Assembly (NCBI GenBank): GCA_013289145.1
Contig: JABDAM010000002.1
Coordinates: 7,653 to 71,652 of the forward strand
Source of the DNA: Alphaproteobacteria bacterium
GTDB taxonomy: Bacteria; Pseudomonadota; Alphaproteobacteria; UBA11073
Length of the DNA stretch: 64,000 nucleotides
Direction of reading: 5' to 3'
Part shown: piece by piece, positions 53,581 to 60,933 of the stretch
Position numbering within the stretch: the stretch's first letter is position 1
Layout: every line of letters starts with the position of its first letter
Made by a program: the position numbers and the translations under genes
The notes under the pieces: model-generated
Database searches by the model: none
What the model saw: the letters and a program-made list of their open reading frames with translations, nothing else
What the model was told of the DNA's origin: nothing

Positions 53581-54060
53581 ATGGGTCAGAAATTCCCCAA
53601 TCCGCGTTTGTTTAAGGTGAATTGGAATTACACCGTGGCGGATGCCGTCCGTTGCGCGAAAGTTCACGAAAACACCATCCGTAATTGGATAAAATGGGGA
53701 TTAAAGCCAATTGATAATAATCGCCCTATGCTGATTACAGGTGCCGAATTTATCAGGTTCTTAACGCAACAACGCGCCGCCAGAAAACGACCCTGCCAGC
53801 CGCACGAACTTTATTGCCTCCGCTGCCGCAAGCCGCAACGCCCGGCGGGCGATATGGCCGATTATTTGTACACCGCCCCAAATCGCGGTTGCCTGACAGC
53901 TATTTGTCCCGGCTGTGACGGGATGCTGAACAAACGAATGTCACCGTCTGACCTGCCCGCTGTTAAAGCTATTTTGAACATTTCTGAGCAACGTCATGAA
54001 CCACACATAGATGACCGTTCAACCCCTAGTCTGAATTGTAACTTCGAAAGGAAAAGATAA
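53581..54060 (+). CDS. HTH (excisionase/MerR-like) + Cys4 zinc-ribbon protein
   Basis: YTVADAVRCAKVHENTIRNWIKWGL is HTH-like. CLRC...CPGC gives four cysteines. The stop overlaps the next start (TAATG). Confidence 0.5.
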   Translation: MGQKFPNPRLFKVNWNYTVADAVRCAKVHENTIRNWIKWGLKPIDNNRPMLITGAEFIRFLTQQRAARKRPCQPHELYCLRCRKPQRPAGDMADYLYTAPNRGCLTAICPGCDGMLNKRMSPSDLPAVKAILNISEQRHEPHIDDRSTPSLNCNFERKR

Positions 54061-55097
54061 TGGCTCCGAAATACAACCCGCAGAACGAGCGCATTAAGCG
54101 CGAATATATGGAACATTTACGCCACGCCAAACGGCTAAGTGACCCCACCATTGATGGTGTTCTGAAATCCATACGGCGGTTTGAAGAATATACGGGGTTT
54201 AAGGATTTCAAACAATTTACTCGGCATCAGGCCATGAACTTTGTCCGTGACCTGCCCGAAACGCCCAATGCACGAGGCAATGGCGTTTTAAGTCGCCCCA
54301 CCGTCTATACAACCCTCATACAGTTGCGGACATTTTTTATCTGGCTGGCAGGAAAGCCAGGATATAAATCGCGTTTTGTATATTCGGATGCCGATTATTT
54401 TAACCTGACAGAAAAACAGGCGCGTATGGCAAAGGCTCCGCGTATGCAGCGCCAGCCGACGATGGAGCAGATTACCGCCGTGGTGCAATCTATCACGCCC
54501 GCCACCGATTTTGACCGCCGTGACCAGGCACTAATTGCTTTTGCGATTTTGACAGGTGCGCGGGATGGCGCACTGGCATCCATAAAACTGCGGCATGTGG
54601 ATTTGGAGCAAAGGCTGCTTTACCAAGATGCACGCGACGTCAAAACCAAGAATAGCAAAACCATCCCGACGTTCTTTTTCCCCATCGGCGGAGTTTTTGA
54701 ACAGATTGTCGTGGATTATATAGCATACCTGAAAAAAGATCGGTTGTGGGGTATGGATGACCCGTTATTCCCGGCCACCAAAATGGCAGTCGGTGAAAGC
54801 GGTGGGTTTGCAGCAGCAGGTTTTGACCGTCGGCATTGGACAACGGCCAGCCCCATTCGGGATATTTTCAAGAAACGCTTTGCTGGGGCGGGATTGCCTT
54901 ATTACAAGCCGCATACTTTCCGGCGTACGCTGGTGTTGTTAGGTGAAAAAATCTGCAAATCACCGGAAGAGTTTAAGGCATGGTCGCAAAACATCGGTCA
55001 CGACCATGTTTCCACGACCTTTAACAGTTACGGGAATATCGGCATGAACCGACAGGGAGAAATTATGCAGCAGCTTGGAAGTAATATCAGGATATAA
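54060..55097 (+). CDS. Tyrosine recombinase / site-specific integrase (second one on the island)
   Basis: Catalytic residues are in the expected order: TGARDGAL (R), HTFRRTL (HxxR), GHDHVSTTFNSYG (H...Y). Confidence 0.8.
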   Translation: MAPKYNPQNERIKREYMEHLRHAKRLSDPTIDGVLKSIRRFEEYTGFKDFKQFTRHQAMNFVRDLPETPNARGNGVLSRPTVYTTLIQLRTFFIWLAGKPGYKSRFVYSDADYFNLTEKQARMAKAPRMQRQPTMEQITAVVQSITPATDFDRRDQALIAFAILTGARDGALASIKLRHVDLEQRLLYQDARDVKTKNSKTIPTFFFPIGGVFEQIVVDYIAYLKKDRLWGMDDPLFPATKMAVGESGGFAAAGFDRRHWTTASPIRDIFKKRFAGAGLPYYKPHTFRRTLVLLGEKICKSPEEFKAWSQNIGHDHVSTTFNSYGNIGMNRQGEIMQQLGSNIRI

Positions 55098-55165: not shown

Positions 55166-55369
55166 TTAATGTTTAAACCATTCGCTGTTATTAATGTGAA
55201 AGGCAGCTCTTACCAATTCAAATCTTGGATGATTTCCACAATGATTACATGGGGGAAAACGTTTTCCCTTAATCACGGTAACCTCATGCTCTTGTGTGTG
55301 ACGCCTATCATGAATAACTTTGTAAATACCTGACCTTGGTACCTCATCTCCTGGTTTATATTGAGCCAT
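55166..55369 (-). CDS. Small hypothetical protein (67 aa) with CxxC
   Basis: Start MAQYKPGDEVPRSGIYKV is preceded by AAGGAGAAGCT. The sequence contains PPCNHCG. The longer ORF-track start lacks an RBS. Confidence 0.5.
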   Translation of the reverse strand: MAQYKPGDEVPRSGIYKVIHDRRHTQEHEVTVIKGKRFPPCNHCGNHPRFELVRAAFHINNSEWFKH

Positions 55370-55691
55370 AGCTTCTCCTTTCCCGGAATCCGGGTTGTTA
55401 AGAAAGTAATTGGCTTGACTGGGAAGGCACACATTCGATAGAATATGAGTCTGAACTGGATACGCAGCCAATTACGATGATGCGTGTCTAAAGGAACGCT
55501 CCCCTGGCCTGCAAAGTTTTGGGGGGCTTTTCTTTATCAGCAGATAAAATAACATACCTTGTTATGCTTATGCAATAAAAAACGTTTCGAATCAGTGGGT
55601 TAGTGATTCGTTAAGTGTTTAAATAATCCCCTTCCCTCTTTCTAATTTCCAAGTAGACTACGCATGTCATTCACCCATTTGGGCGAGTGAT

Positions 55692-55898
55692 GGGGCGTAG
55701 TAACCCCTTGTCATAGCGGTTGGCACAACCGCATTGGTGCCGTTCCTAAACAGACTGGCATCAGAGTGCCGCTTCTCAGCTTTGGCTGGGGAGCGGTGGT
55801 GTATGTCCAGCCCGCAAGGGTAAAGGCCATCGCGCCGTTTTCTATGACAACGGTTACTAATCCCCAGTCGCCAGAGTGGACACTTTGGCGGCTTTTTT
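55692..55898 (+). promoter_or_regulatory. Candidate structured 5' leader / cis-regulatory RNA ending in an intrinsic terminator
   Basis: 55692-55716 (ggggcgtagtaaccccttgtcatag) pairs with 55842-55865 (ctatgacaacggttactaatcccc), enclosing GC-rich local hairpins that include a GCAA-capped stem. It ends with the stem cgccagag/ctttggcg plus gcttttttc at 55869-55898, 25 nt before the OMP start. Confidence 0.3.
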
Positions 55899-55922
55899 CT
55901 TATCAACCTTGGGGGAAAACCG

Positions 55923-56564
55923 ATGAATAAAATTTACTCACTGGCGTTTGTAGCCGCCTTGTTGGCTGTCACCACTGCCACAGCACACGCAGACGATTGG
56001 ACAACCAATCTGCGTCCTTATGTGGGCGCTGATTATCAATTCACTCACCTGAAATACAATAATGATTATGGGGTTGGTGGCGGCTTGGCACTAGACGGCA
56101 ATACGATTTTAGAACGTGGCCTGAACGGCGGCAATGTTCACGTAGGCGTGCGCCCGGCGCAGTATTGGGGCGCAGAGTTGGGTTATTTTGACACTACGAA
56201 TGAAAGCAAAAATATCGCCGCTGGGACGACGGTTGGACCCGGCACGGTTGCCTTGGTGCCACTGACAGGCAAAGTGCAAATGCATGGCGCAACGCTGGAT
56301 GCGATGGGCTACCTGCCTGTGATTGCCAACCGGGTTGATTTAATCGCCACCACCGGGCTTGCATGGGACCATATTAAAGCGGGCTTTGGTGGCCTCGGCA
56401 GCGTCAGCAAAAGTGAGATTGATTGGCGGATTGGTGGCGGCGCGCAGGTGAATTTATTACCCAATTTGAATCTGCGCGGTCTGGTGCGTTACCAAACGGC
56501 GGATTTCAAAAACATCGCCGATAGCGCGTGGGTTTACACCGCCGGGCTAAATTACAGTTTTTAA
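55923..56564 (+). CDS. Outer-membrane beta-barrel protein (OMP_b-brl / Omp25-like)
   Basis: Signal peptide MNKIYSLAFVAALLAVTTATAHA, alternating-hydrophobicity strands, and the C-terminal signature GLNYSF. Confidence 0.75.
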   Translation: MNKIYSLAFVAALLAVTTATAHADDWTTNLRPYVGADYQFTHLKYNNDYGVGGGLALDGNTILERGLNGGNVHVGVRPAQYWGAELGYFDTTNESKNIAAGTTVGPGTVALVPLTGKVQMHGATLDAMGYLPVIANRVDLIATTGLAWDHIKAGFGGLGSVSKSEIDWRIGGGAQVNLLPNLNLRGLVRYQTADFKNIADSAWVYTAGLNYSF

Positions 56565-56573
56565 TTTTCTTCA

Positions 56574-56606
56574 CCGCCGCCAGTCAAAAGCTGGCGGCTT
56601 TTCTTT
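56574..56606 (+). terminator. Rho-independent terminator after the OMP gene
   Basis: CCGCCAGtcaaaagCTGGCGG followed by cttttcttt. Confidence 0.6.
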
Positions 56607-56630: not shown

Positions 56631-57017
56631 ATGCGCATTATCTCTATTATCGGCCTCGTAGCCCTTGGCGGCTGCATTACCGCCTGTTCCAGCATTATTG
56701 AGGGACGTACTCAGCAGATTGTCATTAATACCAATCCGCCCGGCGCAAGCTGCCAGTTAGTCCGCAATGGCGCGACTATCGCCACCGTTATTGATACTCC
56801 CAGCGGCGTGAATGTGGACAAAACAAAATACGATATTGAGATTAGATGCAACAAACGCGGCTATCAACAAGCTACTTACCTAAACCATTCCGGTACGGCG
56901 GGTGCGACGGTTGGCAACATTATTCTTGGTGGCGGCATCGGTTGGGCAATCGACTCTGCTTCTGGCGCCGACAATAAATACGACAGTCCAGTGAATATCA
57001 CGCTGGCTAAAAAGTAA
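56631..57017 (+). CDS. Lipoprotein with PEGA-like domain
   Basis: Lipobox LGGC in MRIISIIGLVALGGCITAC. INTNPPGASCQLVRNG resembles a PEGA domain, and the C-terminus is Gly-rich. Confidence 0.6.
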   Translation: MRIISIIGLVALGGCITACSSIIEGRTQQIVINTNPPGASCQLVRNGATIATVIDTPSGVNVDKTKYDIEIRCNKRGYQQATYLNHSGTAGATVGNIILGGGIGWAIDSASGADNKYDSPVNITLAKK

Positions 57018-58230: not shown

Positions 58231-58296
58231 GGTATTTTGGATGCCCACAGCGGCGATATAATCTGCCTCATATTCGTTGAATATCGGGAGCGCAAA

Positions 58297-60933
58297 ATGA
58301 TACTTAAAACGATTACGCCTGAATTAATTACGGCTTATTGGTTTTGCCCGCGCAAGGCTTTTTTGTTAATGCGCGGCGAAAAAGGCGCGGCCAGGCATGA
58401 ATATGTGGAAGTGATGGAGCGGCAGGCCTTGGCAAACCGTAAAAAAAATTTGGAAATTTCTAAAACTGGCGCGCCGGGAATCTGCGAACTTTTTTTGGCA
58501 ACCAGTACCCACAACATCGGCAAAGATCAAAAAATCCAATTGGCGGCGATGGCATATCTGCTGACGAAATCATCGGGCAAAACGATTACATCCGGCACAA
58601 TCATGAATGCGGCCGGCACGTTTTTTCAGGTTAAATTAACGGCCTTGATCGCGGAAATCGCGCCGCTGGTTGAAACGCTGGAAAGCTGGGTGAAAAAACC
58701 GCCACTCGAAGCGCCAGGAATTATTCTGATACGGCATTGCCAGATTTGCCCTTTCCGTCAGGCTTGTTTCGACCAGGCAAAAATCGAAGATAATCTCAGC
58801 CTGCTCGACCGCGTCACGCCCAAGGTGATGAAAAAATATAAAAAGCAAGGCATCTTTACCGTTCGCCAGTTATCTTATCTTTACCGCCCGCGGCGCGAGC
58901 GCAAAAGAAGCAAACCGGCGCCGGTGAAATTTGACGTGACGTTACAGGCTTTGGCGTTGCGGGAGCAGAAAATCTATGTGCAGGAAACGCCCATTATTCC
59001 GGCGCATCCGGTTGAAATCTTCATTGATTTCGAAGGCTTGCCCGATCAGGAATATGATTATCTCATCGGCATGATGGTTTCTGAAAACGGGCGCGCGGAA
59101 TGTCATTCTTTCTGGGCGGATACGGCGCAGGATGAAAAAACCATGTTTGAAAATTTCTTACATGCCGCCGCAAAATATCCTGATGCGCCCATTTATCATT
59201 ACGGACATTATGAATTCAAAAGCCTCATTCGAATTGGGAAGAAATATAACCTGGATATTGAAACGGTCAAAAAGCGGTTGATGAACGTCAGCTTTTTTGT
59301 ATTCGGCAAGATTTACTTCCCGGCGCGTTCCAACAACCTGAAAGATATCGGTAACATCATCAGCGCTGTGTGGACAGAACCAGGGGCTTCGGGACTGCAT
59401 AGCATTGCCTGGCGGATGCAGTGGGACGTATCGCAAAATGTCCGGTTCAAACAAAAATTGCTGACTTATAATGCGGAGGATTGCGCTGCGCTGCGTATTT
59501 TGCTCGTCGAACTGCGCAGCATCAGCGCGGCCGCTGAAACCCGCGCGGACGTGGATTTTGCGGGGCGCATCAAGCCAACCGCCAGTCCGGCGGGTCAGGC
59601 TATTCATCATTCACTGGAGCAAATTCTGCGTTCCGCCCATGCGGAATATCACAAAAACCGCATCGGCATCCGGCAGCGGGACAAGGATGACAAACCCGTT
59701 CATATCGGCGGCACGTTTGGCCACACAGGTGTGCGGCGGATCATTCCCAAACCGGACAGAGTTGTTCATGTCAAACCCATAACCCGCTGCCCCAAGCATC
59801 CAAATGAAATTCTGCAACCGGATGAAGATTGCAGTCATACCGTGATCGATCTGGAAATGATGCCGCATGGTTTTCAAAAAGTGATTACAAAATATACCGG
59901 CAAATCCGGCTATTGCGGCCGGTGTTACCGCCGTTACTTGCCACCGCGGATTAAGCAACTGTCCAACCAGCTGTTCGGCCACAACATGCGCGCCTGGGTG
60001 GTGTTTCAGCGGGTTGTCCTGCGCCTGTCCTACAGCGCGATATCGCAGGTTTGCGAAGAATTGTTCCGCGAACCTGTCACCGACGGCACCATTGGAAATT
60101 TCATGAAAGATTTCGGCAATCATTATGCCAAAACCGAAGAGATTTTGTTTCAGAAAATCTTCGCCAGCCCTTTTATGCATGTCGATGAAACCCGCATCAG
60201 CGTTCAGGGCGCGGATCATTATGTCTGGGTTTTCACCAATGGCACGCACGTCGTTTTTCGTCTGACAGAAACGCGCGAATCCGGCGTCATCCAAGAATTA
60301 CTGAAAAATTATAAAGGTATTTTGATTTCCGATTTTTACGGCGGCTATGATGCCTTTGCCTGCCGCCAGCAAAAGTGCCTGGTGCACCTTATCCGCGATT
60401 TGAACGATGAATTATGGAAAAACCCGCATCATCCGGCGCTTGAGGCTTTTGTGGGCGCGGTGAAAGAATTGTTGACGCCCTTGATGCAGGATGTACAAAC
60501 CCACGGCTTGCGCCGCCGCCATTTGCGCCGGCATGAAAAACGCGTGGCGGCATTCTATCAAAACACCATTGATAACCAAACCTATAAAGACGAAACGCTC
60601 GGGCGCTATCAAAAGCGCTTTTCGCGTTACCGCGACAGCCTGTTCCGCTTTTTGCAGGAAGATCATATCCCCTGGAACAATAACATGGCTGAGCGCGCCA
60701 TTCGCCATCTGGCGATCCAGCGCAAGATTTCGGGGAGTTTTTATAAAGGCCCCATGATTTCCTATCTGCGTCTGCTCGGCATCGCGCAGTCGTGCCGGTT
60801 TCAGAAAAAGTCATTTCTGGGCTTTATGCTTTCCGGCAAAAAAGACGTAGATGAATTCCATCCACCCCGGCGGCAGCCCATTTCCGAACCGGCTGGCGGC
60901 GGCGTTAATGCCGTTACTGCCCAGCAGGGGTAA
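58297..60933 (+). CDS. Fusion protein: Cas4/RecB-like (TM0106-type) nuclease + RNase H-like domain + IS66-type zinc-ribbon/DDE transposase
   Basis: N-terminal part: WFCPRK...HCQICPFRQAC (C...CX2CX5C), IDFEGLPDQEYDYLIG, YHYGHYE, YNAEDCAAL. C-terminal part: RCPKHP...CGRCYRRY, HVDETRISV, ISDFYGGYDAF, WNNNMAERAIRH. It is one uninterrupted frame, with gggagcgcaaaATG at 58297. Confidence 0.75.
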   Translation: MILKTITPELITAYWFCPRKAFLLMRGEKGAARHEYVEVMERQALANRKKNLEISKTGAPGICELFLATSTHNIGKDQKIQLAAMAYLLTKSSGKTITSGTIMNAAGTFFQVKLTALIAEIAPLVETLESWVKKPPLEAPGIILIRHCQICPFRQACFDQAKIEDNLSLLDRVTPKVMKKYKKQGIFTVRQLSYLYRPRRERKRSKPAPVKFDVTLQALALREQKIYVQETPIIPAHPVEIFIDFEGLPDQEYDYLIGMMVSENGRAECHSFWADTAQDEKTMFENFLHAAAKYPDAPIYHYGHYEFKSLIRIGKKYNLDIETVKKRLMNVSFFVFGKIYFPARSNNLKDIGNIISAVWTEPGASGLHSIAWRMQWDVSQNVRFKQKLLTYNAEDCAALRILLVELRSISAAAETRADVDFAGRIKPTASPAGQAIHHSLEQILRSAHAEYHKNRIGIRQRDKDDKPVHIGGTFGHTGVRRIIPKPDRVVHVKPITRCPKHPNEILQPDEDCSHTVIDLEMMPHGFQKVITKYTGKSGYCGRCYRRYLPPRIKQLSNQLFGHNMRAWVVFQRVVLRLSYSAISQVCEELFREPVTDGTIGNFMKDFGNHYAKTEEILFQKIFASPFMHVDETRISVQGADHYVWVFTNGTHVVFRLTETRESGVIQELLKNYKGILISDFYGGYDAFACRQQKCLVHLIRDLNDELWKNPHHPALEAFVGAVKELLTPLMQDVQTHGLRRRHLRRHEKRVAAFYQNTIDNQTYKDETLGRYQKRFSRYRDSLFRFLQEDHIPWNNNMAERAIRHLAIQRKISGSFYKGPMISYLRLLGIAQSCRFQKKSFLGFMLSGKKDVDEFHPPRRQPISEPAGGGVNAVTAQQG

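What the first reader, a model, noticed from the sequence alone, without database searches (positions are those of the whole stretch)
55692..55922. Strongly structured GC-rich element with a terminator immediately upstream of an island-borne OMP gene
Within an AT-rich spacer sits a GC-rich block of about 200 nt. A roughly 24-bp long-range helix (55692-55716 with 55842-55865; 21 of about 26 positions complementary) encloses several local hairpins. These are gcggtt-ggcac-aaccgc, ggtgcc/ggcatc, ccgcttc/ggagcgg, and a GCAA-capped stem. It is followed by a good intrinsic terminator (55869-55898) only 25 nt before the OMP start codon. Aptamer-like domain, then terminator, then RBS is the layout of a riboswitch or attenuator, and I cannot match it to any riboswitch class I know. 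An alternative reading treats the 24-bp arms as DNA inverted repeats of an invertible or mobile segment. A tyrosine recombinase gene lies about 600 nt upstream. I see no promoter-like hexamers inside the segment, which weakens that alternative.
Basis: partly seen in the sequence, partly recalled or inferred. Interest (0 to 1): 0.6.

Follow-up and report, generated by a model that had tools for sequence, protein, structure and literature searches.

The report
Self-masked C4/sRNA-Xcc1-type leader RNA
The flagged GC-rich block is a real, tightly folded leader RNA in front of an outer-membrane-protein gene. It belongs to a large uncatalogued family distantly related to the phage C4 / sRNA-Xcc1 antisense RNAs, so it is a new variant of a known kind of regulator and probably not a metabolite riboswitch or an invertible DNA switch.

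Summary

The element has three diverged copies in this genome, each before a paralogous OMP gene. A covariance model built from it finds full-length relatives in 18 of 151 sampled genomes of the class (one of them, G043, unpublished), with 1-8 copies each. It also finds relatives in other classes of the phylum. In 46 members, 62 of 65 base pairs show compensatory changes.

Every member has the same layout: promoter-like boxes, a 5' hairpin, a closed multi-helix fold, RCCA, a hairpin (a terminator in about half), a Shine-Dalgarno site, then a co-oriented ORF. The ORFs have unrelated functions.

No Rfam family reaches threshold. The 3' half matches sRNA-Xcc1 (RF02221) end to end, below threshold, in 22 of the 30 relatives' loci scanned and in the window itself. 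True RF02221 loci also carry the same 5' arm.

A second, mutually exclusive C4-like fold also covaries. It shows RNase P signals: A(-2) U(-1) | G(+1), a stem, then RCCA.

Best reading: a self-masked C4-type leader/antisense RNA that gates the OMP gene by termination and processing. The family assignment is firm; the mechanism is inferred.

This scan reached the same reading for the family in other genomes.

The parts
55631..55661 (+). Promoter-like boxes: a weak -35 (TTCCCT) and a -10 (TAGACT at 55656-55661). The inferred start is about 55667.
   Evidence: The -10 box is aligned in the three in-genome copies as TAGACT / TAATAT / TAAAAT. In many relatives a TTGAC(N)-N17-TAnnnT box ends 24-31 nt before the model start. 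No transcript data are available.
55666..55691 (+). P0: 5'-terminal hairpin directly abutting the closed fold.
   Evidence: Present in the minimum-free-energy fold. Compensatory changes appear among 4 copies. 33 of 46 relatives have a hairpin of -6 kcal/mol or better at this position.
55692..55715 (+). 5' masking arm (5' strand of long-range helix P1). It has three parts: GGGG, an a1-like segment (tagtaacc), and a hypervariable b1-like segment (ttgtcata). It can also fold locally as a GGGG-N8-CCCC hairpin.
   Evidence: Pairs with 55843-55865. All 21 P1 pairs hold across 46 members, and 20 of them show compensatory changes. The inner part differs at 60-67% of positions between in-genome paralogues, against 34-41% at four-fold degenerate sites of the adjoining gene. 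The local hairpin pattern occurs in 38 of 46 members and covaries.
55716..55732 (+). P2 hairpin. Its loop, GGCAC (55722-55726), is complementary to GUGCC at 55766-55770 (the 5' base of P4) and at 55737-55741, which makes a pseudoknot candidate.
   Evidence: Loop-to-junction complementarity of 5 nt or more is found in 25 of 46 members, against 6.9% for mismatched member pairs. Many sequence types covary.
55735..55763 (+). P3: an optional hairpin.
   Evidence: Present in the fold. Only about 13 of 46 members have it.
55768..55797 (+). P4 hairpin. Its 3' strand (GGCTGGGGA, 55784-55792) is also the 5' strand of the alternative C4-like outer stem. The inferred RNase P-type cut lies between 55783 and 55784 (uuU|GG).
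   Evidence: All 14 P4 pairs covary. The alternative pairing with 55861-55869 is 86.7% canonical against 78.8 +/- 1.4 when shuffled, with CG/UA and GC/AU exchanges. Across the family, N(-1) = U in 30 of 41, N(-2) = A in 24 of 41 and N(+1) = G in 38 of 41.
55798..55836 (+). P5 hairpin with conserved internal loops (GUAUGUCCA / UAAAGG) and a GCAA-capped tip. It corresponds to hairpin 1 of the sRNA-Xcc1 model.
   Evidence: Covariation. Aligned to the sRNA-Xcc1 and C4 consensus.
55837..55865 (+). 3' strand of P1. In the alternative fold it becomes hairpin 2 (CCGTT...AACGG, with the b'-like loop tttctatgaca), a junction, and the anti-SD-like tail UCCCC.
   Evidence: Hairpin 2 pairs are 80.7% canonical against 68 +/- 2 when shuffled.
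55866..55900 (+). Hairpin T, an intrinsic terminator: a 12-bp stem plus TTTTTTCTT. Its first 4 nt (AGTC) belong to the alternative outer stem, and the next 4 (GCCA) are the conserved RCCA.
   Evidence: Terminator scan. A hairpin is present in 39 of 46 members, a U-rich tail in 21 of 46, and RCCA in 34 of 46.
55910..55925 (+). Translation-initiation region of the OMP gene: SD GGGGG, then AAAACCG, then ATG. It is complementary to UCCCC and CGGUU of the RNA's 3' part, and in the fold it pairs with the terminator's U tract.
   Evidence: The AACCG-ATG motif is kept in 6 of 6 OMP-linked leaders, with one AACCU/AGGUU exchange. It is not general in the family: 8 of 42 against 13% background.
55923..56564 (+). 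The regulated gene: a 213-aa 8-stranded-type outer-membrane beta-barrel protein, followed by its own terminator at 56576-56598.
   Evidence: Pfam OMP_b-brl, E = 1.3e-12. Terminator. Homologues are annotated as porin family or opacity-like proteins of Alphaproteobacteria.

Best explanation
Window 55666-55900 (+) encodes the promoter-proximal leader of the OMP mRNA. It belongs to a widespread, uncatalogued family of leaders of roughly 150-240 nt (about 235 nt here). This family is an extended, distant relative of the sRNA-Xcc1 / phage C4 antisense RNAs.

The RNA has two mutually exclusive folds.
A 5' arm pairs with the 3' part of the RNA. This masks the C4-like core's variable loop, its junction and its CUCCCC-type anti-SD tail. 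Hairpin P4 hides the 5' strand of the C4-like outer stem. The intrinsic terminator that follows stops most transcripts before the OMP gene, so OMP is made only by read-through.
- Alternative state. The P4 3' strand pairs with the tail to give the C4/sRNA-Xcc1 fold. Its outer stem looks like a tRNA acceptor end: A(-2) U(-1) | G(+1) ... C, then RCCA. By analogy with C4, RNase P would release an sRNA of about 90 nt.

The hypervariable but always complementary b1:b' helix is the address. It makes each copy specific for its own leader.

Shown here: the structure, both folds, family membership, the cis linkage to the downstream ORF, and the RNase P-like signals.
Inferred: transcription, termination efficiency, processing, and whether the released RNA represses or activates the OMP translation start.
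For: Structure and stability:
- z = -7.6 on the + strand.
- 19 compensated pairs among only 4 copies.
- 62 of 65 pairs compensated in 46 members; 91.5% of cells paired against 70% when shuffled and about 40% when the pairing is slid.

The RNA is on the + strand: many positions have G-U as the commonest pair, and reverse-strand scores are about 20 bits against about 190.

Cis role:
- A co-oriented ORF with an SD lies within 8-55 nt of the model's end in 40 of the 46 members; two more have one further off and four have none that passed the filter.
- Upstream neighbours are 23 on the same strand and 20 on the opposite strand, and are unrelated to each other.
- Four OMP homologues at 51-62% identity, from unrelated metagenomes, all carry the element.

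Relation to sRNA-Xcc1/C4:
- End-to-end (positions 1-87) RF02221 matches on the 3' half, at 25-48 bits, in 22 of 30 loci scanned plus the window at 30.8 bits.
- My model finds 9 of 12 true RF02221 loci at E < 0.01, and these fold closed with the same 5' arm.
- 9 of 12 true RF02221 loci have a covarying complement of the loop at the downstream gene's RBS, which is the C4 a'/b' to a2/b2 logic.

Alternative fold covaries.

RNase P signals:
- The genome has a type A RNase P RNA, and its tRNA-Leu gene encodes ACCA.
- C4 is processed by RNase P at the 5' end of its outer stem, at a GGW motif (PMC5320573).
- U(-1), A(-2) and RCCA are bacterial RNase P determinants (PMC4919922).
- The sRNA-Xcc1 5' end mapped in Xanthomonas gives an 88-nt RNA of the length of the 87-position Rfam model, whose first position aligns to this boundary here (PMC2996969).

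The hypervariable helix evolves faster than four-fold degenerate sites.
Against: - No transcript data exist for this uncultured organism; only DNA contigs could be laid.
- The closed state is on average 12.9 kcal/mol more stable than the C4-like state. Nothing identified here would trigger the switch.
- In the closed state, and with hairpin T formed, the RCCA is base-paired.
- Unlike true sRNA-Xcc1 loci, most members of this branch, including the window copy, have no evident b2-like target at the RBS: 10 of 42 have a match of 7 nt or more, against 10.4% in controls.
- Rfam scores are below every gathering threshold. The c4-a1b1 model (RF03163) does not hit the 5' arm at all.
- The -35 box of the window copy is weak.
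Confidence: 0.6

Rival explanations
1. A ligand-sensing riboswitch of a new class. The multi-helix junction with its pseudoknot is an aptamer, and ligand binding decides between the closed fold plus terminator and an antiterminated fold.
For: - A complex, strongly covarying junction with a pseudoknot and highly conserved internal loops.
- Two mutually exclusive folds that touch the terminator.
- Always a 5' leader.
- A second-messenger ligand could explain the heterogeneous downstream genes.
Against: - The downstream genes share no pathway.
- The element is homologous to antisense RNAs.
- One helix is hypervariable and evolves faster than synonymous sites, which is unlike an aptamer.
- Only about half of the members have a terminator-like hairpin T.
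- True relatives carry covarying RBS targets.
Confidence: 0.12
2. A free-standing trans-acting sRNA gene with its own promoter and terminator. The downstream gene is incidental and is expressed independently.
For: - It has its own promoter-like boxes and a strong terminator.
- sRNA-Xcc1 is described as a trans-acting sRNA (PMC12189769).
- There is no cognate target in the flanks.
Against: - There are only about 22 nt between the U tract and the ATG, leaving no room for a separate promoter.
- Co-orientation and spacing are constant across the family, while upstream neighbours are random.
- The leader-OMP linkage is kept down to 51% protein identity.
- Members without hairpin T run straight into the SD.
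Confidence: 0.15
3. A purely cis-acting translational or transcriptional leader with no processing and no released sRNA. For example, it could be an RNA thermometer or a protein-binding leader in which the P1 outer helix merely sequesters the anti-SD tail.
For: - The tail CUCCCC is complementary to the 5' GGGG, to the P4 3' strand and to the G-rich SD. In members without hairpin T the tail and the SD can form a local hairpin.
- The closed state is by far the more stable.
Against: - The conserved A(-2) U(-1) | G(+1) and RCCA signals, and the covarying acceptor-like stem, would be unexplained.
- The mapped 88-nt sRNA-Xcc1 has the length of the Rfam model, whose first position aligns to the predicted processing site.
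Confidence: 0.1
4. A DNA-level element: the 24-bp arms are inverted repeats of a segment that the nearby tyrosine recombinase inverts or mobilises.
For: A tyrosine recombinase gene (54060-55097) lies about 600 nt upstream, inside a tRNA-Leu island.
Against: - Pairing relies on G-U pairs, which are valid on one strand only.
- The two other copies in this genome, and 40 of 42 relatives' upstream neighbour ORFs, are not recombinases.
- Several nested helices and a pseudoknot covary.
- No inverted joint appears in the available contigs.
Confidence: 0.02

Closest known systems
sRNA-Xcc1 (Rfam RF02221), an 88-nt sRNA of Xanthomonas campestris. It is found in integron cassettes upstream of symE (PMC2996969; bioRxiv 10.1101/2025.06.18.660453).
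   Same: - The 3' 94 nt (55784-55877) align end to end to the model: outer stem, a hairpin with a GNRA-type tip, a second hairpin, and a tail of the CCCCRG-YC-RCC type.
- It lies directly upstream of a co-oriented ORF.
- True RF02221 loci also carry the 5' arm and the closed fold.
   Different: - The score is 30.8 bits against a gathering score of 53.
- The conserved internal loop differs: GUAUGUCCA/UAAAGG here against AAUACAA/GAAU in the model.
- The window copy shows no covarying target at the RBS, whereas 9 of 12 true members do.
- The published and Rfam unit covers only the 87-nt 3' half.
c4 antisense RNA of phages P1/P7 with its a1/b1 and a2/b2 sites (Rfam RF01695 and RF03163; Citron & Schuster 1990; Weinberg 2010, PMC2864571).
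   Same: - The layout: an upstream decoy (a1/b1), a folded antisense RNA in the leader, then the regulated gene.
- Two adjacent 5' hairpins, the second presenting a1 in its loop, with b1 just 3' of it.
- The outer stem overlaps a terminator hairpin, as Weinberg noted for some c4 RNAs.
- An RNase P-type processing site that begins with GG.
- A hypervariable specificity determinant.
   Different: - C4 scores 23.5 bits against a gathering score of 45.
- RF03163 gives no match on the element.
- An extra masking hairpin (P4) and a pseudoknot are present.
- There is no a2/b2 site in most members.
- The regulated genes are OMPs, lipoproteins and assorted accessory genes, not an antirepressor operon. 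One member does precede an AntA gene.
Multi-copy C4-like 'Group 1' sRNAs of Acinetobacter baumannii (PMC5320573).
   Same: - Many diverged chromosomal copies per genome.
- Processed from longer transcripts that have an upstream region.
- Variation is concentrated in the specificity region.
   Different: - Those sRNAs reach the Rfam C4 motif.
- They are not described as leaders abutting the start codon of a downstream gene, nor as having a closed self-masked fold.

Membership tests
sRNA-Xcc1 (RF02221) | Score at or above Rfam's gathering threshold (53 bits). | tested here: not met
   The window element scores 30.8 bits (E = 0.0024 in the local scan, 1.2e-3 genome-wide). Relatives score 25-48 bits.
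sRNA-Xcc1 (RF02221) | Full-length architecture: a 9-bp outer stem enclosing two hairpins, then an RCC tail. | tested here: met
   The alignment covers model positions 1-87 of 87 in the window and in 22 of 30 relatives' loci. The outer stem and hairpin 2 covary in 46 members.
sRNA-Xcc1 (RF02221) | Reciprocal recognition: a model built from this family finds true members. | tested here: met
   Model R1 finds 9 of 12 loci holding RF02221 matches of 53 bits or more, at E < 0.01 and at the same place and strand. These loci fold with the same 5' arm.
C4 antisense RNA (RF01695) | Score at or above the gathering threshold (45 bits). | tested here: not met
   23.5 bits, E = 0.049.
C4 antisense RNA system (P1/P7 immI) | An upstream a1/b1 decoy complementary to the RNA's variable regions. 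| tested here: met
   The 5' arm at 55692-55715 pairs with 55843-55865. The pairing covaries and is hypervariable. The local a1-type hairpin pattern occurs in 38 of 46 members.
C4 antisense RNA system (P1/P7 immI) | A downstream a2/b2 target overlapping the RBS of the regulated gene. | tested here: inconclusive
   There is no cognate match for the variable loop in the window copy. Across the family, 10 of 42 have a match of 7 nt or more against 10.4% in controls. Only the constant UCCCC and CGGUU segments match the OMP start region.
C4 antisense RNA system (P1/P7 immI) | 5' maturation by RNase P. | not testable with these tools
   Only the sequence signals are present: A(-2) U(-1) | G(+1), an acceptor-like stem and RCCA. 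The host has a type A RNase P RNA and CCA-encoding tRNA genes.
c4-a1b1 motif (RF03163) | A match to the Rfam model (gathering score 46.7 bits). | tested here: not met
   There is no match on the element even at E <= 10. The best match anywhere in the genome is 16.4 bits, elsewhere.
Riboswitch (any Rfam class) | A match to a known aptamer model, or downstream genes of one pathway. | tested here: not met
   There is no aptamer match at gathering threshold. The only weak hit, preQ1-II at 21.1 bits, lies outside the element on the other strand. The downstream genes are heterogeneous.
Invertible DNA switch | Inverted repeats beside a recombinase, with both orientations present in reads. | tested here: inconclusive
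   A recombinase is adjacent in only 2 of 42 members. Pairing is strand-specific because of G-U pairs. No inverted joints were seen, but only contigs were available.

The most novel reading that the evidence does not exclude
The published 87-nt sRNA-Xcc1 may be only the processed 3' half of a conserved, bistable, self-masked 'pro-sRNA' leader of roughly 150-240 nt, found across Pseudomonadota. In the alphaproteobacterial branch the RBS target has been lost. There the fast-evolving b1:b' helix would act as a private address: each copy's released sRNA feeds back only on nascent leaders of its own locus. That would be an immunity-like, copy-specific autoregulatory circuit placed in front of OMP, lipoprotein and other accessory genes.
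Probability: 0.3. Interest if true: 0.7.

Novelty: new variant of a known kind. Interest (0 to 1): 0.5.

Why it matters
If the reading is right, three things follow.
- Gene regulation: many accessory and surface-protein genes in uncultured Alphaproteobacteria, and in other Pseudomonadota, would be gated by a phage-type antisense-RNA leader that current annotation misses entirely. No Rfam hit reaches threshold.
- Scope of a known family: the sRNA-Xcc1 family would be much wider and longer than catalogued. Its function is still unknown, although it has been linked to virulence regulators in Xanthomonas and Xylella.
- RNA biology: the two covarying folds, the RNase P-like signals and a helix that evolves faster than synonymous sites make a directly testable model of a self-masked, locus-specific regulatory RNA.

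Tried and rejected
- Rfam at gathering threshold, on the window and on 20 relatives' loci: only tRNA and rRNA.
- BLAST of the element against the phage and plasmid collections: no match.
I used the core instead.
- A search for a C4-style a2/b2 target. RNAduplex of the variable 3' segment against each member's own flanks gave a fractional rank of 0.49, which is no signal. The exact-complement test gave only weak enrichment. The b1 word occurs nowhere else in the window.
- AACC upstream of the ATG as a general second target: not general, 8 of 42 against 13% background.
- A kissing interaction between the P5 loop (UGUCCA) and the T loop (UGGACA) of the window copy: the T loops of the two paralogous copies lack UGGACA, so I dropped it.
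- Integron attC site: rejected. The copies are dispersed rather than in arrays, and the internal hairpins are conserved.
- RNA-seq support: no RNA run holds the locus.
- Hartmann 1995 and Chen 2011 are not held in the library.

Full report
**Observation.** The region 55660-55925 folds on the + strand at -126.8 kcal/mol, against -88.6 +/- 5 for dinucleotide shuffles (z = -7.6). The - strand gives z = -4.1. The helices are these:
- P0: 55666-55691.
- Long-range helix P1: 55692-55715 with 55843-55865, 20 pairs.
- P2: 55716-55732.
- P3: 55735-55763.
- P4: 55768-55797.
- P5: 55798-55836, with a GCAA tip.
- A 12-bp terminator stem at 55866-55893, followed by TTTTTTCTT.

The OMP gene (Pfam OMP_b-brl) starts at 55923. 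It missed only the 5' hairpin.

**Conservation and covariation.**
- The genome is a 1.4-Mb, 70%-complete MAG, which earlier notes of this scan call an uncultured soil alphaproteobacterium. OMP homologues are annotated as Alphaproteobacteria.
- It holds three copies of the element at 82-83% identity. Each precedes a paralogous 213-aa OMP gene and a 128-aa ORF.
- With a fourth copy from a family relative, RNAalifold recovers the same structure, with 19 compensated pairs.
- A covariance model of the core (R1) finds full-length matches in 18 of 151 genomes sampled across the class, with 1-8 copies each. One of these genomes, G043, is unpublished. Only that tally and the first alignment (A6) include it; every statistic quoted below comes from A7, which leaves it out.
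- R1 also finds matches in other classes of the phylum.
- In a 46-member alignment, 62 of 65 pairs show changes on both sides. 91.5% of cells are paired, against 70% in shuffles and 37-49% when the partners are slid.
- G-U is the commonest pair at several positions, and reverse-strand hits score about 20 bits against about 190. The functional molecule is therefore + strand RNA, not duplex DNA.

**Context.** All members share one layout:
- Promoter-like boxes. Where a good box is found it is TTGAC(N)-N17-TAnnnT, ending 24-31 nt before the model start in most members.
- A 5' hairpin, then the closed fold, then RCCA.
- A hairpin T in 39 of 46 members, with a U-rich tail in 21 of 46.
- An SD and a co-oriented ORF, which begins within 8-55 nt of the model's end in 40 of the 46.

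The downstream ORFs are unrelated to each other: OMPs, lipoproteins, an Mrr_cat_2/ResIII enzyme, AntA, GIY-YIG, DUF4268, Cache, an Fe-hydrogenase and many small proteins with no Pfam family. Upstream neighbours are 23 on the same strand and 20 on the opposite strand. They range from housekeeping to defence genes, and only 2 of 42 are integrases. OMP homologues at 51-62% identity, from four unrelated metagenomes, all carry the element 35-55 nt upstream. So the element is a 5' leader module. It is neither a pathway-specific riboswitch nor a recombinase-linked DNA site.

**What it is related to.**
- No Rfam family reaches its threshold.
- In permissive mode the 3' half (55784-55877) aligns end to end to sRNA-Xcc1 (30.8 bits, gathering score 53). 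It also aligns to C4 antisense RNA over 55778-55875 (23.5 bits, gathering score 45).
- The same end-to-end sRNA-Xcc1 match, at 25-48 bits, recurs at the same relative position in 13 of 20 and in 9 of 10 other loci.
- Conversely, R1 finds 9 of 12 loci that hold true RF02221 matches (53 bits or more) at E < 0.01. Those loci fold with the same 5' arm closing on the sRNA.
- In 9 of those 12, the loop of the sRNA's second hairpin has a complement of 7 nt or more between the SD and the ATG of the downstream gene, against 13.6% for mismatched pairs of loci.
- That is the C4 logic of a'/b' pairing with a1/b1 upstream and a2/b2 at the RBS, as described in Weinberg 2010's supplement. The supplement also notes that the c4 outer stem often overlaps a terminator hairpin.
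- The Rfam c4-a1b1 model (RF03163) does not recognise the 5' arm. That resemblance is therefore architectural only: two adjacent hairpins, the second (GGGG-N8-CCYY, 38 of 46 members, covarying) presenting an a1-like loop, with the b1-like segment just 3' of it.

**Two folds.**
- The 3' strand of P4 is complementary to its P4 partner. It is also complementary to the tail (the 3' strand of outer P1 plus the first 4 nt of hairpin T).
- This alternative stem is 86.7% canonical against 78.8 +/- 1.4 when rows are shuffled, with CG/UA and GC/AU exchanges. The hairpin it encloses is 80.7% canonical against 68 +/- 2.
- This alternative is the fold that Rfam's model sees.
- Its 5' boundary reads A(-2) in 24 of 41 members, U(-1) in 30 of 41, and G(+1) in 38 of 41. 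RCCA follows its 3' strand in 34 of 46.
- These are the determinants of bacterial RNase P (PMC4919922). C4 is cut by RNase P at exactly this kind of site (PMC5320573).
- The mapped sRNA-Xcc1 is 88 nt long, the length of the 87-position Rfam model, whose first position aligns to this boundary.
- The genome has a type A RNase P RNA, and its tRNA-Leu gene ends in ACCA.
- The closed fold is more stable by 12.9 kcal/mol on average, in 36 of 42 members. The C4-like fold therefore needs the 5' arm to be displaced or removed.
- A further pairing, between the P2 loop and the 5' base of P4, is supported by own-versus-cross complementarity (25 of 46 against 6.9%) with many covarying sequence types. It overlaps the bottom of P4, so it may belong to the open state.

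**Specificity helix.**
- The inner part of P1 (the b1-like 5' segment with the loop of hairpin 2) has 1.75 bits of column entropy, against 0.65-1.3 bits in the other regions.
- Between the three in-genome paralogues it differs at 60-67% of positions yet stays complementary. P4, P5, the tail and outer P1 differ at 0-20%. Four-fold degenerate sites of the adjoining OMP genes differ at 34-41%.
- With only about 15 positions this is suggestive rather than proven. It is the pattern expected of an address under diversifying selection, as with the P1/P7 c4 heteroimmunity determinants.
- No cognate site exists in the flanks of the window copy. The only known partner of this loop is therefore the 5' arm of its own leader.

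**Mechanism (inferred).**
- Transcription from about 55667 gives a leader that folds closed.
- The terminator at 55866-55900 then stops most polymerases, so OMP synthesis depends on read-through.
- In read-through RNA, the SD (GGGGG) can pair with the terminator's U/C tract or with the UCCCC tail.
- Opening of the 5' arm allows the C4-like fold and RNase P-type release of an sRNA of about 90 nt. The constant UCCCC and CGGUU segments of that sRNA match the OMP start region (GGGGG...AACCG-ATG). This motif is kept in 6 of 6 OMP leaders, with one AACCU/AGGUU exchange, but it is not general in the family.
- What opens the arm, and the sign of regulation, are unknown.

**Rivals.**
- A second-messenger riboswitch cannot be excluded, but it fits the homology and the hypervariable helix poorly.
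- A free-standing sRNA does not explain the constant fusion to a start codon.
- A DNA inversion switch is contradicted by the strand-specific G-U pairs and by the lack of recombinase linkage. The contigs that could be laid show no inverted joint, and they break at the repeat because of the three paralogues.

**Earlier work of this scan.** After I had reached this reading, a word search of the scan's notes showed that other agents had filed the same family in other genomes as a self-masked, C4/sRNA-Xcc1-like leader RNA. Their cases lie in front of OMP, lipoprotein or XRE genes. These are unchecked AI notes and not independent evidence. The RF03163 accession came from them, and I tested it.

Noticed in passing
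window 55415-55538 (+), opposite the 5' end of the minus-strand ORF 55166-55471: A promoter-like site (TTGACT-18-TAGAAT, 10 of 12 matches) is followed about 50 nt later by a terminator-like hairpin with a U tract. That hairpin gives a weak ctRNA_p42d-like hit of 21.9 bits. Together they could encode an RNA of about 85 nt. Its first ~20 nt would be antisense to the start of a YjzC-like 101-aa ORF.
   Followed up: no
window 56576-56598 and 56631-57017 (+): The OMP gene has its own intrinsic terminator. The 128-aa ORF after it has no Pfam family. That ORF travels with the leader-OMP module in all three in-genome copies.
   Followed up: partly
G000 contig C15:4147-4233 (+): This is the best sRNA-Xcc1-like match in this genome (42.1 bits, still below the threshold of 53). 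My model R1 did not pick it up, so the genome holds at least one further, different branch of the superfamily.
   Followed up: no
L008 (G002:C1:1199533-1199772, -): The copy in the family relative carries an insertion of about 50 nt that extends the tip of P4. It precedes a different gene, a small ORF whose N-terminus looks like a signal peptide.
   Followed up: partly
L065, L068, L074-L076 (true RF02221 loci in other classes): The 5' arm of several true sRNA-Xcc1 loci contains an internal hairpin followed by a U run. It looks like a terminator inside the leader, upstream of the sRNA part.
   Followed up: no
window 55765-55920, run X1: The contigs of the source soil metagenome break inside the element. 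Summed depth also rises from 92 to about 150-380 over the conserved core. This is consistent with the three paralogous copies collapsing in assembly.
   Followed up: partly
window 58237-60933 (+): An 898-aa ORF joins a Cas4-like domain, an RNase H-like domain and an IS66 DDE domain. This scan has already filed it separately.
   Followed up: no
window 55660-55925; RNA runs X3 (aquatic) and X4 (peat): Two metatranscriptome runs hold 8% of the element's sampled 31-mers. This hints that relatives are transcribed.
   Followed up: no
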